Origin: Patescibacteria group bacterium
GTDB lineage: Bacteria; Patescibacteriota; Patescibacteriia; UBA9934; GWF2-40-263
Direction: 5' to 3'
Assembly: GCA_041661745.1 (NCBI GenBank)
Contig: JBAZTR010000002.1
Location: forward strand, 132,368 to 196,367
DNA: 64,000 nucleotides
In this document: piece after piece, positions 3,328-29,947 of the stretch
How the letters are laid out: the number at the start of each line of letters is the position of its first letter
Position numbering within the stretch: position 1 is the stretch's first letter
Position numbers and translations under genes: made by a program
Notes under the pieces: generated by a model
What the model was told of the DNA's origin: nothing
What the model saw: only the letters and a program-made list of their open reading frames with translations
Database searches by the model: none

Positions 3328-3419
3328 AGCTTAGCTTGGCCCACCATTGAGAGTTTCCCGCCTTTGGCGGGACCCCGCCGAGGCCACCGAAGGCGGGGCG
3401 AGTCTCTCCTCGCCCACCA
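3328..3419 (+). repeat. tRNA-associated GC-rich double-hairpin element followed by a 20-nt duplicate of the tRNA-Leu 3' end
   Basis: TCCCGCCTTTGGCGGGACCCCGCC..GGCGGGGC at 3356-3398. Exact copy of GAGTCTCTCCTCGCCCACCA (tRNA 3308-3327) at 3400-3419. Confidence 0.75.
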
Positions 3420-3550
3420 AGTAGTTTTCCTTCTTATTTGTCTTCCCCTAAAAGCTTTGGGAGAAAACAAATAACGAGGAGAAATCCCCGTCTCTTCCCT
3501 TAATTAAATAATCGTTTTGCTGTTTTTACGTATTAAAAACAAAAATATTT

Positions 3551-7429: not shown

Positions 7430-8422
7430 ATGTCTAAATTTCTAACTGCCATCCAGCCGAGCGGCCTTCTGCACCTCGGTAACTATATCGGGGCCATTGA
7501 ACCGGCCGTGGAATCGCAACGCGGCAACGAGCTGCGAATGTTTGTTGTTGATTACCACGCCATCACTGTGCCGCAAAAGCCGGAGGAACTGCGTAAAAAT
7601 ATTCTCCTTGCCACCGCCACTTATCTGGCCTGCGGTATTGATCCAAAAAAGACCATACTCTTTCAGCAATCGCGCGTGCCCCAACACGCCGAGCTGGCTT
7701 GGATTTTAAACTGCACGGCACGCATGGGCGAGCTGGAACGCATGACTCAATACAAAGACAAGGCCCGAACCCGCGGCGAAACCACCACCGTCGGTCTTTT
7801 CGACTACCCGGTGCTCATGGCCGCTGATATTCTTCTTTACGACACGGCCATTGTTCCGGTTGGCGAAGATCAAAAGCAACATGTGGAGCTGGCTCGCGAT
7901 TTAGCCATTCGTTTTAATCGCGATTTCGGCGAAACTTTTGTTGTTCCGCAGCCGAAAATCCGCGAAGTTGGGGCGCGTATTATGGGCCTTGATGATCCGA
8001 CCAAAAAAATGTCGAAATCGGCTTCCAATCCAAAAAATTACATCTCGCTAATGGACGACACTGAGACTGTCCGAAAAAAAATCATGAGCGCAGCCACCGA
8101 TTCCGAGGGACTTGTTGCTTTTGACGAAAAACGTCCGGGAATAGCCAACCTTATGACGATCTATACAGCTGTAGCCAAAAAAGACAATGAAAACATGGAA
8201 CGGCTCGAGGCTGAATACGACGGTAAAGGCTACGGCGAATTCAAAAAAGATTTGGCCGAAAAAATAAATGAATTCCTCGTGCCACTGCAGGCCAAAATTA
8301 GAACTAATCTGAAAAACGAAAAGGCCTTAATCAAAATTTTGGAAGCCGGCTCAAAACGCGCGGCCAAAGAAGCCGAGAAAAAAATGGAGTTGGTGCGGAA
8401 AAGGATTGGAATAAAATTATAA
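7430..8422 (+). CDS. trpS: Tryptophanyl-tRNA synthetase
   Basis: HIGH-type motif HLGNYIGA and KMSKS motif (KKMSKSASN). 330 aa. Confidence 0.9.
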   Translation: MSKFLTAIQPSGLLHLGNYIGAIEPAVESQRGNELRMFVVDYHAITVPQKPEELRKNILLATATYLACGIDPKKTILFQQSRVPQHAELAWILNCTARMGELERMTQYKDKARTRGETTTVGLFDYPVLMAADILLYDTAIVPVGEDQKQHVELARDLAIRFNRDFGETFVVPQPKIREVGARIMGLDDPTKKMSKSASNPKNYISLMDDTETVRKKIMSAATDSEGLVAFDEKRPGIANLMTIYTAVAKKDNENMERLEAEYDGKGYGEFKKDLAEKINEFLVPLQAKIRTNLKNEKALIKILEAGSKRAAKEAEKKMELVRKRIGIKL

Positions 8423-8436
8423 AAAAGATATACAAA

Positions 8437-8462
8437 AAATCGTCCTTGCGGACGTTTTTTTG
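8437..8462 (+). terminator. Rho-independent terminator after trpS
   Basis: CGTCCTTGCGGACG hairpin followed by TTTTTTT. Confidence 0.6.
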
Positions 8463-8463
8463 A

Positions 8464-8872
8464 CACAGAACCATCTGTAAGCCGAATTTTGTCTGCCCGA
8501 TCTTACGACCGAGGAGGCAATCATTTATCTAGATTAGACATTGCTGCCTAATTCATCAGCGAGCTACCAGTAAAACTTGCTCTTGTACCAGAAGGGGTTT
8601 TCCACGCGTCCATGTTGCCATGGAGCGAAAGGCGTTCGACGCCTTACTTTTCACCTTTCATCCCGCCAGAGGCGGGACTAGTATTGTCTCTGTGGCACTA
8701 ATCCCTAAGCTTTTGAACTTGAACAACAGAGATCTCTCAAGGTCGTCCAGATTCATTATGCTTGGTCGCCGTTAGCGACTTTCCTTTTCATCAGCCGTTG
8801 CCGACTGAAGGGTATTCGGACTTTCCTCAACTCACCTTTCGGCAAATCGCGATTGCCCGATGGTCTGTGCCC
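8464..8872 (-). ncRNA. rnpB: RNase P RNA (bacterial type) candidate
   Basis: About 410-nt ORF-free gap. The minus strand has GAGGAAAGTCCGAAT (P4 5' strand) near the 5' end and ACAGATGGTTCTGTG / CGGCTTA near the 3' end. The P1 strands pair (GCACAGACCATC with GATGGTTCTGTG). There is a GGTGAAAAGTAAGGCG-like element. Confidence 0.55.
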
Positions 8873-19732: not shown

Positions 19733-19965
19733 TTACCTTCCTCCTGTGACGATTATCGAATCGTTACTTTGGTCGAGCACAATATCATAATAAAACTTAA
19801 AGGTCAATACTAAACCAAAAACCGCCCGGTTTAATCCGAGCGGTTTTTTATTTTTAAGATTGGTGCGTCGAGCTGTGCTCGACTCGCACCATCGAGCTTA
19901 TCTGACTTCTATGCCAGGCAAAAGCTAAGCTTTTGCCATTGTAACAGAAATCGAGCTAAGCTCGA

Positions 19966-20042: not shown

Positions 20043-20264
20043 ATATTATTTTGTTGCGCCTAGCGAAGCTGGCAATTTTTCCAGCTGCCCCGCCGACGGT
20101 GGCCTTTGGCGGGGTCCCGCCAAAACGAAGTGACGGCGGGAAGCTATGGGCGCATATTATTTTGTTGCGCCTAGCGAAGCTGGCAATTTTTCCAGCTGCC
20201 CCGCCGGCGGTGGCCTTTGGCGGGGTCCCGCCAAAACGAAGTGACGGCGGGAAGCTATGGGCGC
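20043..20264 (-). repeat. Two tandem 111-bp units, each made of a tRNA-associated GC-hairpin element plus a 12-nt copy of the tRNA-Arg 5' end
   Basis: AGCTATGGGCGC (reverse complement of the tRNA 5' end GCGCCCATAGCT) recurs at 20031, 20142 and 20253. The units differ by a single A/G. Confidence 0.85.
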
Positions 20265-20406
20265 ATATTGTTTTGCCCTCTTCTGTAAGCTCATACTGTT
20301 GAGCTACGAAGTCCACCGAAGCTCCGAAGCCTATAGATGAAGGCGAGGAGCGAAGGTGGGTGGGCGCATTAAACGAGAGCTTAAACCTCTTTTTTCAACA
20401 AGTCAA

Positions 20407-22046: not shown

Positions 22047-23003
22047 CTAACGAACTAACCGCGCCAGGCGGCGAGTAACTTTATAAAATAAGTAACCGAA
22101 GGGTTTAATTATGTAATCAAAGGTGCCTGGATATTTTACCACTTCACCGCCAAAACCTTTTTTGAAGCGAGTAATCCCGGCCCAAGGATCCTTGGGATCA
22201 TCACTCGAGGCAATGCCCCACCAATCGTAAAACTTTAAACCTTTTTCTTTTGCCTCTTTCATTAACTCCCAGTGTAATAAAAACGGCGCCATCAAATTCC
22301 GGTCTTGGTTTGATGAGGCCCCGTGGAGGTAGGTTCTGGTTTCGTTAAAATCAACCATGATGTTTGCGGCAATTGCTTTACCTTCAAAAAATACGGCGAC
22401 CAAAAAGACCTGCAGGCTGTCGTCGGATAAATTCAACAAATTCTGATAATGCATTTTTGGATGAATCCGGAACCCGTCGCGTTTAGCCGTTTCTTGAAAC
22501 AACGACCAAACCGAATCGAGGGCACCAGACTTCAAAAATTTAACCTCTAAATTTTTGCGCTGAGCCAGGCCGATGTTGTATCTAGTTTTTGGATGCATGG
22601 CCCCCAAAAGTTCTTGTACGCTTGGCTGAAGAGAAGTAATCAAGGTGGTAGCCGGGGTAATGGAAATAGTTTTTCTAATTCGGGGTGACTCAATTTTGTC
22701 TGATGGCTCGAAACGAATAAATAAAGAATGCTTATCGGCCAGAGTTTCTAAAATTTTTAAAATATTTTTCTTATCTGTGGCCATTGGTCCGCAAATGCCG
22801 GAAATATACGACTGTCCTAATGGTAAAAAGATTCGGCCAACGCTGGCCAAGCCGACCAGCTCATTATTTTCAATAAATTCATAACGCTGACCGCTGGCCA
22901 ACTCACTCCACTCCCAAGCATACAAAAAAGCTCCGGAGCGTGGCCCGTACTTTTTTACAAAACTGTTCCATTTTTCTTTTTCCGTAGCTTCCCTCTTTTC
23001 CAT
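22047..23003 (-). CDS. FemAB-family peptidyltransferase (peptidoglycan interpeptide bridge formation)
   Basis: 318 aa. C-terminal RFKKGFGGEVVKYPGTFD is typical of the FemAB family. Confidence 0.5.
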   Translation of the reverse strand: MEKREATEKEKWNSFVKKYGPRSGAFLYAWEWSELASGQRYEFIENNELVGLASVGRIFLPLGQSYISGICGPMATDKKNILKILETLADKHSLFIRFEPSDKIESPRIRKTISITPATTLITSLQPSVQELLGAMHPKTRYNIGLAQRKNLEVKFLKSGALDSVWSLFQETAKRDGFRIHPKMHYQNLLNLSDDSLQVFLVAVFFEGKAIAANIMVDFNETRTYLHGASSNQDRNLMAPFLLHWELMKEAKEKGLKFYDWWGIASSDDPKDPWAGITRFKKGFGGEVVKYPGTFDYIIKPFGYLFYKVTRRLARLVR

Positions 23004-23007
23004 ATTG

Positions 23008-23118
23008 CCCTCTCCTCTTATCCTCCCCCGTCGTGGCGACGAGGGAGGAAGATTAGAATTTTTTAAAAATTAGTTCTCCCTCTCTCGCTGCCACAGCGGG
23101 GGAGGGCTGGGGTGGGGG
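23008..23118. repeat. Pair of pyrimidine/purine perfect-stem palindromes (CCTCCCCCGTCG..CGACGAGGGAGG and CTCCCTCTCTCGCTG..CAGCGGGGGAGGG)
   Basis: Read directly in the 23004-23120 intergenic region. Confidence 0.6.
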
Positions 23119-26439: not shown

Positions 26440-26694
26440 ACTGCCGTTCGCTACAATTCAATTTTTCAAGAAAAAAGGCTCATTCATCCAGTCTTTGGAG
26501 AATGGGTTTTAAAACTCCAGCGAACAACGATCATTCACAATTGAAGACCTGCAACAAACAAGCAAAAAGAATCAATTGTCAATTATACGATTGTAACGTC
26601 TATCAATGACAAATATTTAACTCCAAACAATAACGGAGCTAGTCATTTCTCAGAGTTCCTCCGAAGCCCGTAAGGGCAAAGGGGAATTTCTTCT

Positions 26695-28187
<1,493 letters not shown>

Positions 28188-28406
28188 AAAGGAATCCGAG
28201 GCTTAGGCCTCTATCCTATTAGGTCGACCAGTTAACCGAGTTCGCTCGGCTTAACAGGCAAGGATCAGTCTCGCAAGAGAATGATTTACAGACGTTACAA
28301 TCGTATAGAAGACAATTGCTTGAAGACACCTGAAATATGGTGTTTTTTGTTTATTTTTCCTCTTGACCTTATTGGGTTAATTTTCTATAATATCACTCGT
28401 CAATAC

Positions 28407-28488
28407 GGGCGTGTAGCTTCCCCCTTCGCCTTCGGGCTTCGGAGGACAGGCAGCTGGTCCAGCTTCGCTACACGTTCAAAAATAACCC
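28407..28488 (+). repeat. 12-nt duplicate of the tRNA-Ile 5' end (GGGCGTGTAGCT) followed by a 70-nt tRNA-associated element (TCCCCCTTCGCC..CAGCTGGTCCAGCTTCGCTAC..)
   Basis: Exact repeat of tRNA nucleotides 1-12 lies immediately upstream of the element, and the element abuts the intact tRNA. Confidence 0.8.
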
Positions 28489-28565
28489 GGGCGTGTAGCT
28501 CAGCTGGTTAGAGCGCAACACTGATAATGTTGAGGTCACAGGTTCGAGTCCTGTCACGCCCACCA
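28489..28565 (+). tRNA. tRNA-Ile (anticodon GAT), encoded CCA
   Basis: GGGCGTGTAGCTCAGCTGGTTAGAGCGCAACACTGATAATGTTGAGG..CACGCCCACCA. Confidence 0.85.
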
Positions 28566-28567
28566 GA

Positions 28568-28642
28568 GCCGAGGTAGCTCAGTGGTAGAGCAGAGGACTG
28601 AAAATCCTCGTGTCGCGAGTCCGATTCTCGCCCTCGGCACCA
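28568..28642 (+). tRNA. tRNA-Phe (anticodon GAA), encoded CCA
   Basis: GCCGAGGTAGCTCAGTGGTAGAGCAGAGGACTGAAAATCCTC..CCTCGGCACCA. Sits 2 nt after tRNA-Ile. Confidence 0.8.
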
Positions 28643-28797
28643 CACCACGTCGCTGCATTTTAAATGGAGCTATGTGGTGTGTCCCTCCGAAGTCCTGCCT
28701 GTGGCGGGACGAAGGGGGACATCAAAACATCCAGACTCGTTCTGGGTTTTTTGTTTTATCCATGTTATACTCTTTCCGACAGAAATCTTATAAATAT

Positions 28798-29868: not shown

Positions 29869-29947
29869 CGGGCCGTAGCTTCCCGCCTTTGGCGGGACCC
29901 CGCCAGAGGCGGGGCAGTAGTTTTTCTTCGCTACGGCTGATAAATGT
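29869..29947 (+). repeat. 12-nt duplicate of the tRNA-Pro 5' end (CGGGCCGTAGCT) plus a 67-nt GC double-hairpin element
   Basis: TCCCGCCTTTGGCGGGACCCCGCCAGAGGCGGGGCAG..CTTCGCTACGGCTGATAAATGT directly precedes the intact tRNA. Confidence 0.85.

What the first reader, a model, noticed from the sequence alone, without database searches (positions are those of the whole stretch)
28407..28565. Same insertion architecture inside the 16S to tRNA-Ile spacer
GGGCGTGTAGCT (tRNA-Ile nt 1-12) is duplicated 70 nt upstream of the intact tRNA. The intervening element starts with TCCC, like the others, and ends with CAGCTGGTCCAGCTTCGCTAC plus an AT-rich box, like the tRNA-Arg units. Its internal hairpins differ, though (TCCCCCTTCGCC..GGCTTCGGAGG). 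This is a third, diverged member with the same termini and the same target position. That points to one insertion mechanism recognising the TAGCTCAG D-arm of several different tRNAs.
Basis: seen in the sequence. Interest (0 to 1): 0.7.

Follow-up and report, generated by a model that had tools for sequence, protein, structure and literature searches.

The report
Hairpin insertion scar in tRNA-Ile gene
A 70-base GC-rich hairpin insert has split off the first 12 bases of the tRNA-Ile gene, and the gene was rebuilt intact just downstream; this is one copy of a widespread and apparently undescribed family of elements that invade tRNA genes, some of which carry a small GIY-YIG nuclease gene.

Summary
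GGGCGTGTAGCT occurs at 28407-28418 and again as nt 1-12 of tRNA-Ile(GAT) at 28489-28500, with 70 nt between the two copies.

The insert has four parts:
- a GC-rich hairpin;
- a copy of tRNA nt 13-20;
- a reverse-complement copy of nt 4-19, with GA replaced by TC opposite the insertion point;
- an AT-rich spacer.

The tRNA 5' segment is therefore present as direct, inverted and direct copies.

It does not lie in a co-transcribed 16S spacer. A terminator and a near-consensus promoter separate it from the 16S gene, so it forms the leader of a tRNA-Ile/tRNA-Phe operon.

About 22 of the 50 tRNA genes in this 0.98-Mb genome carry such stubs. The hairpin sits in the D-, anticodon- or T-loop of a gene fragment, never in an intact tRNA.

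Longer versions carry a stand-alone GIY-YIG nuclease ORF. In relatives, 26 of 32 such ORFs lie within 300 nt of a tRNA.

Sister species show both filled and empty sites. The same design recurs in Omnitrophota, Planctomycetia, Neomarinimicrobiota and Bacteroidota.

Best reading: an ORF-less scar of a mobile hairpin and nuclease cassette that regenerates its target gene. The enzymology is inferred. There is no Rfam match, and I found no paper describing it.

The parts
28322..28347 (+). Terminator-like hairpin with T-run after the 16S gene and its processing-stem arm
   Evidence: 16S at 26689-28185; processing-stem arms 26570-26607 and 28284-28321 (I1)
28363..28391 (+). Promoter-like site TTGACC-17-TATAAT (11 of 12) of the tRNA-Ile/tRNA-Phe operon; it stays attached to the old 5' stub
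   Evidence: same promoter position relative to tRNA nt 1 in relatives without the unit (G002)
28407..28418 (+). Old 5' stub: copy of tRNA-Ile nt 1-12 (GGGCGTGTAGCT)
28419..28450 (+). GC-rich hairpin element, single-hairpin type (TCCCCC..GCC-UUCG-GGC..GGAGGA), plus CAGG, which looks like the remnant of a second hairpin
   Evidence: sits at the same place as the double hairpin TCCCGCC..GGCGGGA CCCCGCC..GGCGGGG of the Arg and Pro units
28451..28458 (+). Direct copy of tRNA-Ile nt 13-20 (CAGCTGGT)
   Evidence: sequence; in genus G012 this segment reads CAGGTGGTT, matching that species' own tRNA
28459..28474 (+). Inverted copy: reverse complement of tRNA nt 4-19, with TC in place of GA opposite the insertion point (CCAGCT-TC-GCTACACG)
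   Evidence: score 12; shuffled mean 5.8, max 11; same rule in 8 of 10 units tested in G000 and in other phyla
28475..28488 (+). AT-rich spacer, now the immediate 5' leader of the functional tRNA
28489..28565 (+). Intact tRNA-Ile(GAT)
   Evidence: 77.1 bits
28568..28642 (+). tRNA-Phe(GAA), same operon
28682..28719 (+). Trailer hairpin of the same family in the opposite orientation (CGAAG instead of CTTCG); it can pair with the leader hairpin
28729..28747 (+). Operon terminator-like hairpin with T-run
20043..20365 (-). Family members: two 111-nt units plus one diverged unit upstream of tRNA-Arg(CCG)
29870..29947 (+). Family member upstream of tRNA-Pro(TGG)
3328..3420 (+). Mirror-image member: a 3' stub of tRNA-Leu(CAG) (T-arm, acceptor 3' strand and CCA) with the double hairpin in the T-loop, downstream of the intact gene

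Best explanation
The 70-nt insert is an ORF-less copy of a family of mobile GC-rich hairpin elements that invade the loop-coding parts of tRNA genes and rebuild the gene in the same event. Here the element entered tRNA-Ile between nt 12 and 13. The promoter, the short leader and nt 1-12 were left behind as a stub carrying the hairpin. The tRNA's first roughly 20 nt were then re-copied twice, once inverted and once direct, so that a complete tRNA-Ile now starts 82 nt downstream. Transcription from the original promoter should therefore produce a structured leader of about 90 nt, which RNase P would remove (RNase P RNA is at 8461-8868). Autonomous relatives of the element carry a stand-alone GIY-YIG (UPF0213-type) nuclease ORF between the hairpin and the regenerated tRNA. 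I infer that this nuclease, acting in trans for short units like this one, makes the break, and that the direct-inverted-direct triplication is the footprint of snap-back or template-switch repair. Shown: the anatomy, the family, the insertion polymorphism, the linkage to GIY-YIG ORFs, and the cross-phylum distribution. Inferred: the nuclease's role, the repair route and the RNase P processing.
For: (1) Anatomy: stub, hairpin, nt 13-20 copy, reverse complement of nt 4-19, AT spacer, intact tRNA.
(2) Genome-wide family: 17 tRNAs have upstream disrupted copies and 6 have downstream ones (about 22 of 50). All 14 double hairpins lie within about 300 nt of a tRNA, inside tRNA fragments and never inside intact tRNAs.
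(3) The hairpin always sits in the loop nearest the truncated end of the fragment (nt 12, 15, 21, 23, 30, 35, 55) and 5-16 nt from that end, so hairpin and truncation look like one event.
(4) Long forms read old nt 1-X, hairpin, 5-16 nt more tRNA, GIY-YIG ORF, intact tRNA. Three are in G000 and 12 of 13 examined in other genera have the hairpin. The ORFs match PF01541 and UPF0213 structures.
(5) All 6 GIY-YIG ORFs in G000 adjoin a tRNA or tmRNA gene. In relatives, 26 of 32 lie within 300 nt of a tRNA, always on the same strand.
(6) Insertion polymorphism: a clean 93-nt insert at nt 12/13 of tRNA-Arg in G001 against an empty G003 site with identical promoter and tRNA. tRNA-Ile is filled in G000, G001, G012 and two metagenome contigs, and empty in G002, G004 and about 10 other genera.
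(7) The hairpin itself moves. Identical 34-nt copies sit in the Pro and Thr stubs; there are at least 14-21 dispersed copies in G001 and G003, one of them in-frame in ligA; and its distribution among relatives is patchy.
(8) Some stubs derive from a different functional allele than the adjacent intact tRNA (Gly-CCC, Thr-CGT, Arg-CCT, Ser-GGA), which points to gene replacement.
(9) The leader array is 99.6% identical between the two tRNA-Arg loci, whereas the tRNA and trailer are 89% identical, which looks like conversion or homing.
(10) The same design, including the TC substitution, occurs in at least 17 loci of other phyla.
(11) The a/a' stem is largely lost in the G001-type Ile units, which argues for a scar rather than a constrained RNA.
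Against: The Ile unit has no ORF, and the ORF-bearing forms lack the inverted arm, so the short units are not simple ORF deletions. No nuclease activity or target site is known for these UPF0213-type proteins, which lack a DNA-binding domain. Nine of the 26 tRNA-linked ORFs lie downstream of a tRNA without the stub-and-hairpin arrangement. The invariant TC at the junction, conserved across phyla, is unexplained and could reflect a constrained three-way-junction RNA or a recombination core. If the nuclease recognised the tRNA gene, the regenerated tRNA should remain a target. In G001 and G003 the hairpin also inserts in non-tRNA sites without obvious triplication. GIY-YIG presence does not discriminate: all 11 hairpin-positive relatives have it, but so do 36 of 41 overall.
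Confidence: 0.6

Rival explanations
1. The unit is a functional structured leader RNA. It would form a three-way junction of stub paired with the inverted arm, the GC hairpin, and a D-loop-like hairpin. This could control processing or folding of the downstream tRNA, for example through alternative pairing of the inverted arm with either the stub or the true tRNA 5' half, or through a leader-trailer helix serving as an RNase III-type processing stem.
For: The unit folds at -31.1 kcal/mol, z = -2.35. In the fold of the whole operon the leader hairpin pairs with the trailer hairpin and the inverted arm pairs with the real tRNA 5' end, z = -6.8. The junction nucleotides (U, C and UC) and the CUUCGCUA motif are conserved across phyla. 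The arms track each tRNA's acceptor sequence: Pro-TGG versus Pro-CGG, and G001 versus G000 tRNA-Arg.
Against: The unit is absent upstream of the orthologous tRNA-Ile in most relatives, including two species of the same genus. The stub/inverted-arm stem is mostly deleted in the G001-type units from three assemblies. Unit copy number varies from 1 to 4 per gene. About half of the units in other phyla have lost the arm. No Rfam family matches. Complementarity between leader and trailer is expected for any two copies of a near-palindrome.
Confidence: 0.15
2. This is the first reader's model: a simple miniature transposon that recognises the TAGCTCAG D-arm sequence and makes a 12-bp target-site duplication.
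For: A clean insert flanked by a 12-nt direct repeat in the filled versus empty comparison. At least 9 tRNAs in G000 and at least 17 loci in other phyla share the GTAGCT^CAG junction.
Against: Repeat length is not fixed: 12, 15-16, 21-23, 24-31, and up to about 39 nt including leader. Most of the 'insert' is templated from the target itself (nt 13-20, the reverse complement of nt 4-20, and nt 1-12), which a cut-and-paste element cannot carry from one tRNA to another. Insertion points lie in all three loops with unrelated local sequences. No transposase is evident.
Confidence: 0.1
3. The direct-inverted-direct arrangement is a spontaneous replication error, an inverted triplication or tandem inversion duplication seeded by short palindromes such as CAGCTG in the D-loop. 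It was tolerated because one intact copy remains, and the hairpin later colonised the dead copy. No dedicated machinery would be involved.
For: Inverted triplications arising at short inverted repeats are a known class of replication error (PMC4689423). tRNA genes are rich in short inverted repeats. The same direct-inverted-direct pattern is seen at 3' ends: the Arg trailer and the Met and His downstream copies.
Against: The hairpin is tightly coupled to the fragment end in every case. The same TC junction recurs across phyla. About 22 of 50 tRNA genes are affected in a 0.98-Mb genome. There is a strong physical link to GIY-YIG ORFs. These features all point to a specific mechanism rather than random error.
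Confidence: 0.1
4. The hairpins are removed at the RNA level as intron-like inserts, and hairpin-bearing tRNA copies can be functional.
For: G035 has a complete tRNA-Thr(CGT) with its own promoter and terminator, perfect stems, and two hairpins (D- and T-loop), and no other close copy in that genome.
Against: In the Ile unit, as in nearly all others, the hairpin sits in a truncated stub next to an intact gene. There is no bulge-helix-bulge or group I signature. tRNA-Thr(CGT) is dispensable when Thr(TGT) is present (general knowledge of wobble decoding).
Confidence: 0.04

Closest known systems
Free-standing GIY-YIG homing-endonuclease cassettes that carry a replacement piece of their target gene (fungal mitochondrial HEGs with partial gene duplications; T4 segB in the tRNA cluster). 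The Allomyces atp6 case and segB are recalled from memory and were not verified here.
   Same: A small GIY-YIG ORF sits next to or inside the target gene. A partial duplicate of the target is left beside an intact or replaced copy. Presence varies among relatives. Some stubs come from a different allele than the working gene.
   Different: The nuclease here is an 80-aa catalytic domain only (UPF0213-like) with no DNA-binding domain. The targets are many different chromosomal tRNA genes. A hairpin element always marks the stub. An inverted copy of the target accompanies the short forms. No cleavage data exist.
Repetitive hairpin-forming, double-hairpin and GC-cluster elements of mitochondrial genomes (PMC2800124, PMC4478555; the Allomyces DHE is recalled from memory)
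   Same: Short GC-rich single or double hairpins in an AT-rich background. They are multi-copy and patchily distributed, and are found next to tRNA genes and inside rRNA and protein genes.
   Different: These are bacterial with no sequence similarity. Here the hairpins sit inside tRNA gene fragments and come with a templated regeneration of the gene.
Rickettsia palindromic elements (from memory)
   Same: [quoted passage not shown] The hairpin reads through ligA in sister species G001.
   Different: They are not known to be coupled to target-gene duplication or to a nuclease ORF, and they belong to a different lineage and sequence family.
Inverted triplications and tandem inversion duplications formed by template switching at short inverted repeats (PMC4689423)
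   Same: The same direct-inverted-direct arrangement of the duplicated segment, with junctions at small palindromes.
   Different: The scale is about 20 nt rather than kilobases. The event recurs at a defined position of many tRNA genes, is always associated with an inserted hairpin, and shows an invariant TC substitution.
Integrative elements that target tRNA genes and restore them with a carried gene fragment
   Same: The target tRNA gene stays functional because the incoming DNA supplies the displaced part, and a direct repeat of tRNA sequence flanks the insert.
   Different: Those use the 3' part of the tRNA, are kilobases long and encode an integrase. This insert is 70-110 nt, uses the 5' part and has no recombinase.

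Membership tests
MITE or IS-derived miniature transposon | Fixed-length target-site duplication characteristic of the family | tested here: not met
   Direct repeats are 12, 15-16, 21-23, 24-31 and up to about 39 nt.
MITE or IS-derived miniature transposon | The same element sequence, including its termini, at unrelated targets | tested here: not met
   Only the hairpin is shared. The rest of the insert is templated from each local tRNA.
Free-standing homing-endonuclease cassette | Endonuclease ORF within or adjacent to the insert | tested here: not met
   There is no ORF in the 70-nt Ile unit. The feature is met only in long family members: Glu-CTC, Ser-CGA and Thr-GGT in G000 and 12 loci in relatives.
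Free-standing homing-endonuclease cassette | Presence/absence polymorphism at the same site in related genomes | tested here: met
   tRNA-Ile is filled in G000, G001 and G012 and empty in G002, G004 and others. tRNA-Arg is filled in G001 and empty in G003.
Free-standing homing-endonuclease cassette | The endonuclease cleaves the insert-free allele | not testable with these tools
   This requires a biochemical assay.
tRNA intron (group I or archaeal bulge-helix-bulge) | The insert interrupts the only functional copy and carries a splicing signature | tested here: not met
   The insert lies in a 12-nt stub beside an intact gene. No group I or other Rfam match at E up to 10.
Curated structured RNA family (Rfam 15) | A covariance-model match at or near the gathering score | tested here: not met
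   Only the tRNA model matched; nothing matched the unit.
16S-23S type rRNA operon spacer tRNA | tRNA co-transcribed between rRNA genes | tested here: not met
   A terminator-like site and an 11-of-12 promoter lie between the 16S gene and the unit, and no 23S gene lies downstream. Transcription itself was not measured.
Mitochondrial-type mobile hairpin elements (DHE, RHE, GC cluster): analogy only | A multi-copy GC-rich hairpin with insertion polymorphism in intergenic, RNA-gene and coding sites | tested here: met
   There is no sequence relationship, so this shows a shared mode of behaviour, not membership.

The most novel reading that the evidence does not exclude
A cross-phylum, previously undescribed class of selfish element. 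It would be a GC-rich (double) hairpin, optionally carrying a stand-alone UPF0213-type GIY-YIG nuclease, that homes into the D-, anticodon- or T-loop coding positions of tRNA genes (and perhaps the 5' end of 16S). It would regenerate the essential gene in the same event by a templated direct-inverted-direct re-copying of the flank. This would leave arrays of promoter-proximal stubs and occasionally swap in foreign tRNA alleles. It would also assign a biological role to the widespread UPF0213/YhbQ-like GIY-YIG proteins.
Probability: 0.35. Interest if true: 0.85.

Novelty: new variant of a known kind. Interest (0 to 1): 0.72.

Why it matters
If this reading is right, essential single-copy tRNA genes in small-genome bacteria are routinely invaded and rebuilt by a mobile hairpin and nuclease module.

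- **tRNA gene turnover.** It would explain the arrays of tRNA stubs, the tRNA allele replacement, and the movement of promoter-tRNA cassettes between genomic contexts.
- **UPF0213 proteins.** It gives a testable function to UPF0213-type GIY-YIG proteins, whose role is unknown.
- **A compact model.** It offers a naturally recurring, about 20-nt example of inverted-triplication repair.
- **Annotation.** These stubs can be mistaken for split or permuted tRNAs or for assembly errors, and the hairpins also interrupt protein genes in-frame in sister species.

Tried and rejected
- **Known RNA families.** Rfam scans found nothing on the units, the hairpins, or the roughly 110-nt insert downstream of tRNA-Met and tRNA-His. 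I ran the window at gathering scores and the unit regions and eight other loci at E up to 10.
- **Ribozyme or splicing cores.** I looked by eye for hammerhead, other ribozyme and bulge-helix-bulge signatures and found none.
- **Old tRNA 3' end.** I tested whether the 3' arm of the units is a remnant of the old tRNA's 3' end. Alignment to the tRNA 3' part scores no better than shuffles, whereas the reverse complement of nt 1-30 beats the shuffle maximum in 8 of 10 units.
- **Gap between tRNA-Ile and tRNA-Phe in sister species.** I checked whether the 630-700-nt gap holds a cassette. It is an ordinary MgtC/SapB-like membrane protein gene.
- **Phage origin.** The GIY-YIG ORF gave only weak partial matches to phage GIY-YIG genes.
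- **Literature.** Nine searches on GIY-YIG with tRNA, CPR/Patescibacteria, tRNA gene fragments, palindromic elements, double-hairpin elements and inversion duplications found no description of this arrangement in bacteria.
- **Origin of the TC junction.** I could not derive the invariant TC from hairpin bypass or partial-copy models.
- **Assembly artefact.** Rejected, because the unit recurs in independent assemblies.

Full report
**1. Observation**

The 12-mer GGGCGTGTAGCT occurs at 28407-28418 and again at 28489-28500, where it forms nt 1-12 of tRNA-Ile(GAT), which spans 28489-28565. tRNA-Phe(GAA) follows at 28568-28642. With one mismatch allowed the window holds 3 matches against 0.10 expected, and none of 100 shuffles reached 3. 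The 70 nt between the copies read as follows:

- hairpin TCCCCCTTCGCCTTCGGGCTTCGGAGGA, then CAGG (28419-28450);
- CAGCTGGT (28451-28458), which equals tRNA nt 13-20;
- CCAGCTTCGCTACACG (28459-28474);
- TTCAAAAATAACCC (28475-28488).

**2. Setting**

The 16S gene is at 26689-28185. Its processing-stem arms are at 26570-26607 and 28284-28321. A terminator-like hairpin with a T-run follows at 28322-28347. An 11-of-12 sigma-70-type promoter lies at 28363-28391. A second terminator-like site lies at 28729-28747. No 23S gene follows.

The unit is therefore the leader of a separate tRNA-Ile/tRNA-Phe operon, not a transcribed 16S spacer. The order 16S, terminator, promoter, tRNA-Ile, tRNA-Phe is shared by many relatives.

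**3. Anatomy of the unit**

Segment 28459-28474 is the reverse complement of tRNA nt 4-19. The exception is the two bases opposite the hairpin insertion point, which read TC instead of GA (score 12; shuffled mean 5.8, max 11). The tRNA 5' segment is thus present three times:

- direct, as the stub interrupted by the hairpin;
- inverted;
- direct again, as the working gene.

As RNA the unit folds into a three-way junction at -31.1 kcal/mol, z = -2.35.

The same rule holds in 8 of the 10 units tested in the genome. This includes the acceptor-specific bases of each arm and an unpaired TC, or CTT in the Gln units. The eight are Ile, Pro x2, Arg, Lys, Ala-GGC and Gln x2. Ala-TGC and Ser-GGA did not beat shuffles.

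**4. The family in this genome**

The window lies in a 980-kb, 10-contig, 45.5% GC genome with 50 tRNA genes.

- Seventeen tRNAs carry an upstream disrupted copy of themselves, and six carry a downstream one.
- The GC-rich double hairpin TCCCGCC..GGCGGGA CCCCGCC..GGCGGGG occurs 14 times, always within about 300 nt of a tRNA gene.
- It sits inside tRNA fragments, never inside an intact tRNA. Positions are nt 12/13, 15/16 or 23/24 (D-loop), 35/36 (anticodon loop, inverted orientation) and 55/56 (T-loop).
- Identical 34-nt copies lie in the Pro and Thr stubs, so the hairpin itself has moved recently.
- In every case the hairpin is in the loop nearest the truncated end of the fragment and 5-16 nt from that end. 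This argues that hairpin insertion and truncation belong to one event.
- Some stubs derive from a different, cloverleaf-consistent allele than the adjacent intact tRNA. Examples are Gly-CCC, Thr-CGT and Arg-CCT in G000, and Ser-GGA and Thr-GGT in relatives.

**5. Link to a nuclease gene**

Three long versions exist, upstream of Glu-CTC, Ser-CGA and Thr-GGT. Each reads: old nt 1-X, hairpin, 5-16 nt more tRNA, an ORF of about 80 aa, then the intact tRNA.

- The ORFs match the GIY-YIG catalytic domain (PF01541, E 7e-18 to 1e-9).
- Their closest solved relatives are the UPF0213 proteins EF2693 and BH0048.
- All six such ORFs in the genome adjoin a tRNA or tmRNA gene. One has an in-frame TGA.
- Among 41 genomes searched (40 relatives plus G000), 36 have such ORFs.
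- In 30 fetched loci, 26 of 32 ORFs lie within 300 nt of a tRNA, all on the same strand, and 17 have the tRNA immediately downstream.
- Twelve of 13 inspected cassettes have a double hairpin 15-35 nt upstream of the start codon, inside a stub of the downstream tRNA.

At Thr-GGT the layout is [old 1-12, hairpin, 13-24][ORF][intact tRNA][old 45-55, hairpin, 56-76]. A cassette has replaced the anticodon arm of an older gene.

**6. Evidence that the units are insertions**

- Upstream of tRNA-Ile, the unit is present in sister species G001, in two G001-like metagenome contigs from other samples, and in genus G012.
- In G012 the post-hairpin segment reads CAGGTGGTT, matching that species' own tRNA.
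- The unit is absent in G002 and G004 of the same genus and in about ten other genera.
- A more distant contig (16S about 84% identical) has two disrupted tRNA-Ile copies followed by an intact one.
- The cleanest case is tRNA-Arg(CCG). G001 and G003 share an identical 42-nt promoter region and an identical tRNA. G001 has a 93-nt insert exactly between nt 12 and 13.
- That insert consists of the hairpin, a copy of nt 13-20, a loop, the reverse complement of nt 20-3 with TC, an 11-nt AT spacer, and a copy of nt 1-12.
- Within G000, the leader arrays of the two tRNA-Arg loci are 99.6% identical over 229 nt, whereas the tRNA and trailer are 89% identical. This suggests recent conversion of the leader.

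**7. Breadth**

- The exact hairpin is patchy among relatives: 11 copies in G000, 10 in G001, 9 in G003, 1 in G004 and 0 in G002, with sporadic occurrence in other families.
- G001 and G003 hold at least 14-21 dispersed copies. One reads through ligA in-frame, just before the KxDG motif.
- A scan of one genome per species for GTAGCT followed by TCCCGCC..GGCGGGA gave 84 matches.
- At least 17 of these, in other phyla, have a same-strand tRNA within 700 nt whose first 12 nt match the stub (at least 11 of 12). The phyla include Omnitrophota, Planctomycetia, Neomarinimicrobiota, Ignavibacteriales, Saprospiraceae and other Bacteroidota.
- Several of those carry the inverted arm with the same TC.
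- In those loci the direct repeat often extends into the leader, to about 39 nt in total. It is therefore not a fixed target-site duplication.
- One match is a MAG labelled Candidatus Uhrbacteria whose tRNA-Lys unit is identical to that of G003. This places the genus among the Patescibacteria.

**8. Interpretation**

The unit is best read as an ORF-less member of a family of hairpin elements that enter loop-coding positions of tRNA genes and regenerate the gene in the same event. The ORF-bearing members encode a stand-alone GIY-YIG nuclease, which I take to be the driver.

The direct-inverted-direct triplication resembles inverted triplications made by template switching at short inverted repeats (PMC4689423). 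I infer snap-back repair of a nuclease-made break.

The consequence for the cell is a structured leader of about 90 nt on the tRNA-Ile/tRNA-Phe transcript, presumably removed by RNase P (RNase P RNA at 8461-8868).

What is not shown:
- any nuclease activity;
- the repair route;
- the origin of the invariant TC;
- why the regenerated tRNA would be immune to the nuclease.

**9. Rivals**

A functional leader RNA is the main alternative. In its favour, the junction bases are conserved across phyla, the arms track each tRNA, and the operon fold pairs the leader hairpin with an inverted copy in the trailer at 28682-28719 (z = -6.8).

Against it:
- the unit is absent from most orthologous sites;
- copy number varies from 1 to 4 per gene;
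- the stub/arm stem is largely deleted in the G001-type units;
- about half of the units in other phyla lack the arm.

A plain miniature transposon with a 12-bp target duplication fails, because most of the insert is templated from each local tRNA and the repeat length varies. Random replication error alone does not explain the constant hairpin, the TC or the ORF linkage. An intron-like reading applies at most to rare full-length hairpin-bearing genes such as tRNA-Thr(CGT) of G035.

**10. Comparison with known systems, and novelty**

The behaviour is closest to three things:
- free-standing GIY-YIG homing cassettes that leave target-gene fragments;
- mobile hairpin or GC-cluster elements of mitochondria (PMC2800124; PMC4478555);
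- in-frame palindromic elements of Rickettsia (from memory).

No sequence or family membership could be established. No Rfam family matches, and nine literature searches found no description of the arrangement in bacteria. I rate it a new variant of known kinds of selfish element, with a real chance of being a distinct, widespread class.

Noticed in passing
window 26646-26700: The 16S gene start shows the same design. TTTCTCAGAGTT is followed by a hairpin of the same family (CCTCCGAAGCCCGTAAGGGCAAAGGGG, opposite orientation), then a short spacer, then the true 16S 5' end TTCTGAGAGTTTGATCC. This looks like a stub of 16S nt ~1-11 plus a hairpin.
   Followed up: partly
window 3328-3420: Downstream of tRNA-Leu(CAG) there is a hairpin built on the CCA end, a second copy of CCCACCA, and then a 3' stub (T-arm, acceptor 3' strand and ACCA) with the double hairpin inserted in the T-loop. 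This is the mirror image of the 5' units.
   Followed up: partly
window 19880-19965 (- strand): The tRNA-Arg(CCG) trailer repeats the tRNA 3' end as direct, inverted and direct copies (GCGCACCA ... TGGTGCG ... GCACCA), with AGCT-type hairpins between them. The tRNA-Arg(GCG) locus on contig C4 has the same trailer.
   Followed up: partly
L039 1479-1640 (G035:C47): A complete tRNA-Thr(CGT) gene with its own promoter-like and terminator-like sites and perfect stems, carrying two hairpin inserts (D-loop and T-loop). No other close copy was found in that 96%-complete genome. It is either a freshly killed gene or the inserts are removed or tolerated at the RNA level.
   Followed up: partly
L036 about 1480-1560 (G001:C4): The 54-nt double hairpin, plus CACTCC-type repeats, lies in-frame inside the NAD-dependent DNA ligase gene just upstream of the KxDG motif. 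Similar copies lie in other protein-coding genes of G001 and G003.
   Followed up: partly
L066 and L067 (G000 C2:43100-43800 and C2:202400-202950): Downstream of tRNA-Met(CAT) and tRNA-His(GTG) lies a shared structured insert of about 110 nt with no Rfam match. It sits between an inverted partial T-arm and a direct copy of the tRNA's last 20 nt, which differs between the two tRNAs.
   Followed up: partly
L212 versus L215 (G001:C59, G003:C11): The tRNA-Arg(CCG) unit (42-nt promoter, tRNA and about 25 nt of trailer hairpin) is nearly identical in the two species, but the DNA on both sides is unrelated. The small tRNA transcription unit sits in different genomic contexts.
   Followed up: no
L064 (G000 C4:3359-3598, - strand): The GIY-YIG ORF upstream of tRNA-Thr(GGT) has one in-frame TGA where its paralogues have Arg. 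It is probably a pseudogene rather than evidence of a recoded stop.
   Followed up: no
L068, L070 (G000 C1:25942-26160; C1:360950-361300): Between tRNA-Asn or tmRNA and their downstream GIY-YIG ORFs lie repeated small hairpins, each followed by a pseudo 3' end (for example GGCGGAGCCA three times after tRNA-Asn).
   Followed up: no
window 22984-23105: GTAGCTTCCC followed by two long GC-rich inverted repeats, with no tRNA called nearby. Its relation to the family is unclear.
   Followed up: no
L117, L136, L154, L161, L171, L172, L174, L176 (Elusimicrobia MAG bin N2.88): Many copies of ..GTAGCTTCCCGCC..GGCGGGA with non-tRNA left flanks (AGTGTT, TGTTTT, CAAAGT). This is apparently a different dispersed repeat that shares the motif.
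   Followed up: no
L102 about 8017-8457: A G001-like metagenome contig has a gap of about 440 nt in its alignment to the window's 16S gene. This probably reflects an insertion in its 16S gene.
   Followed up: no
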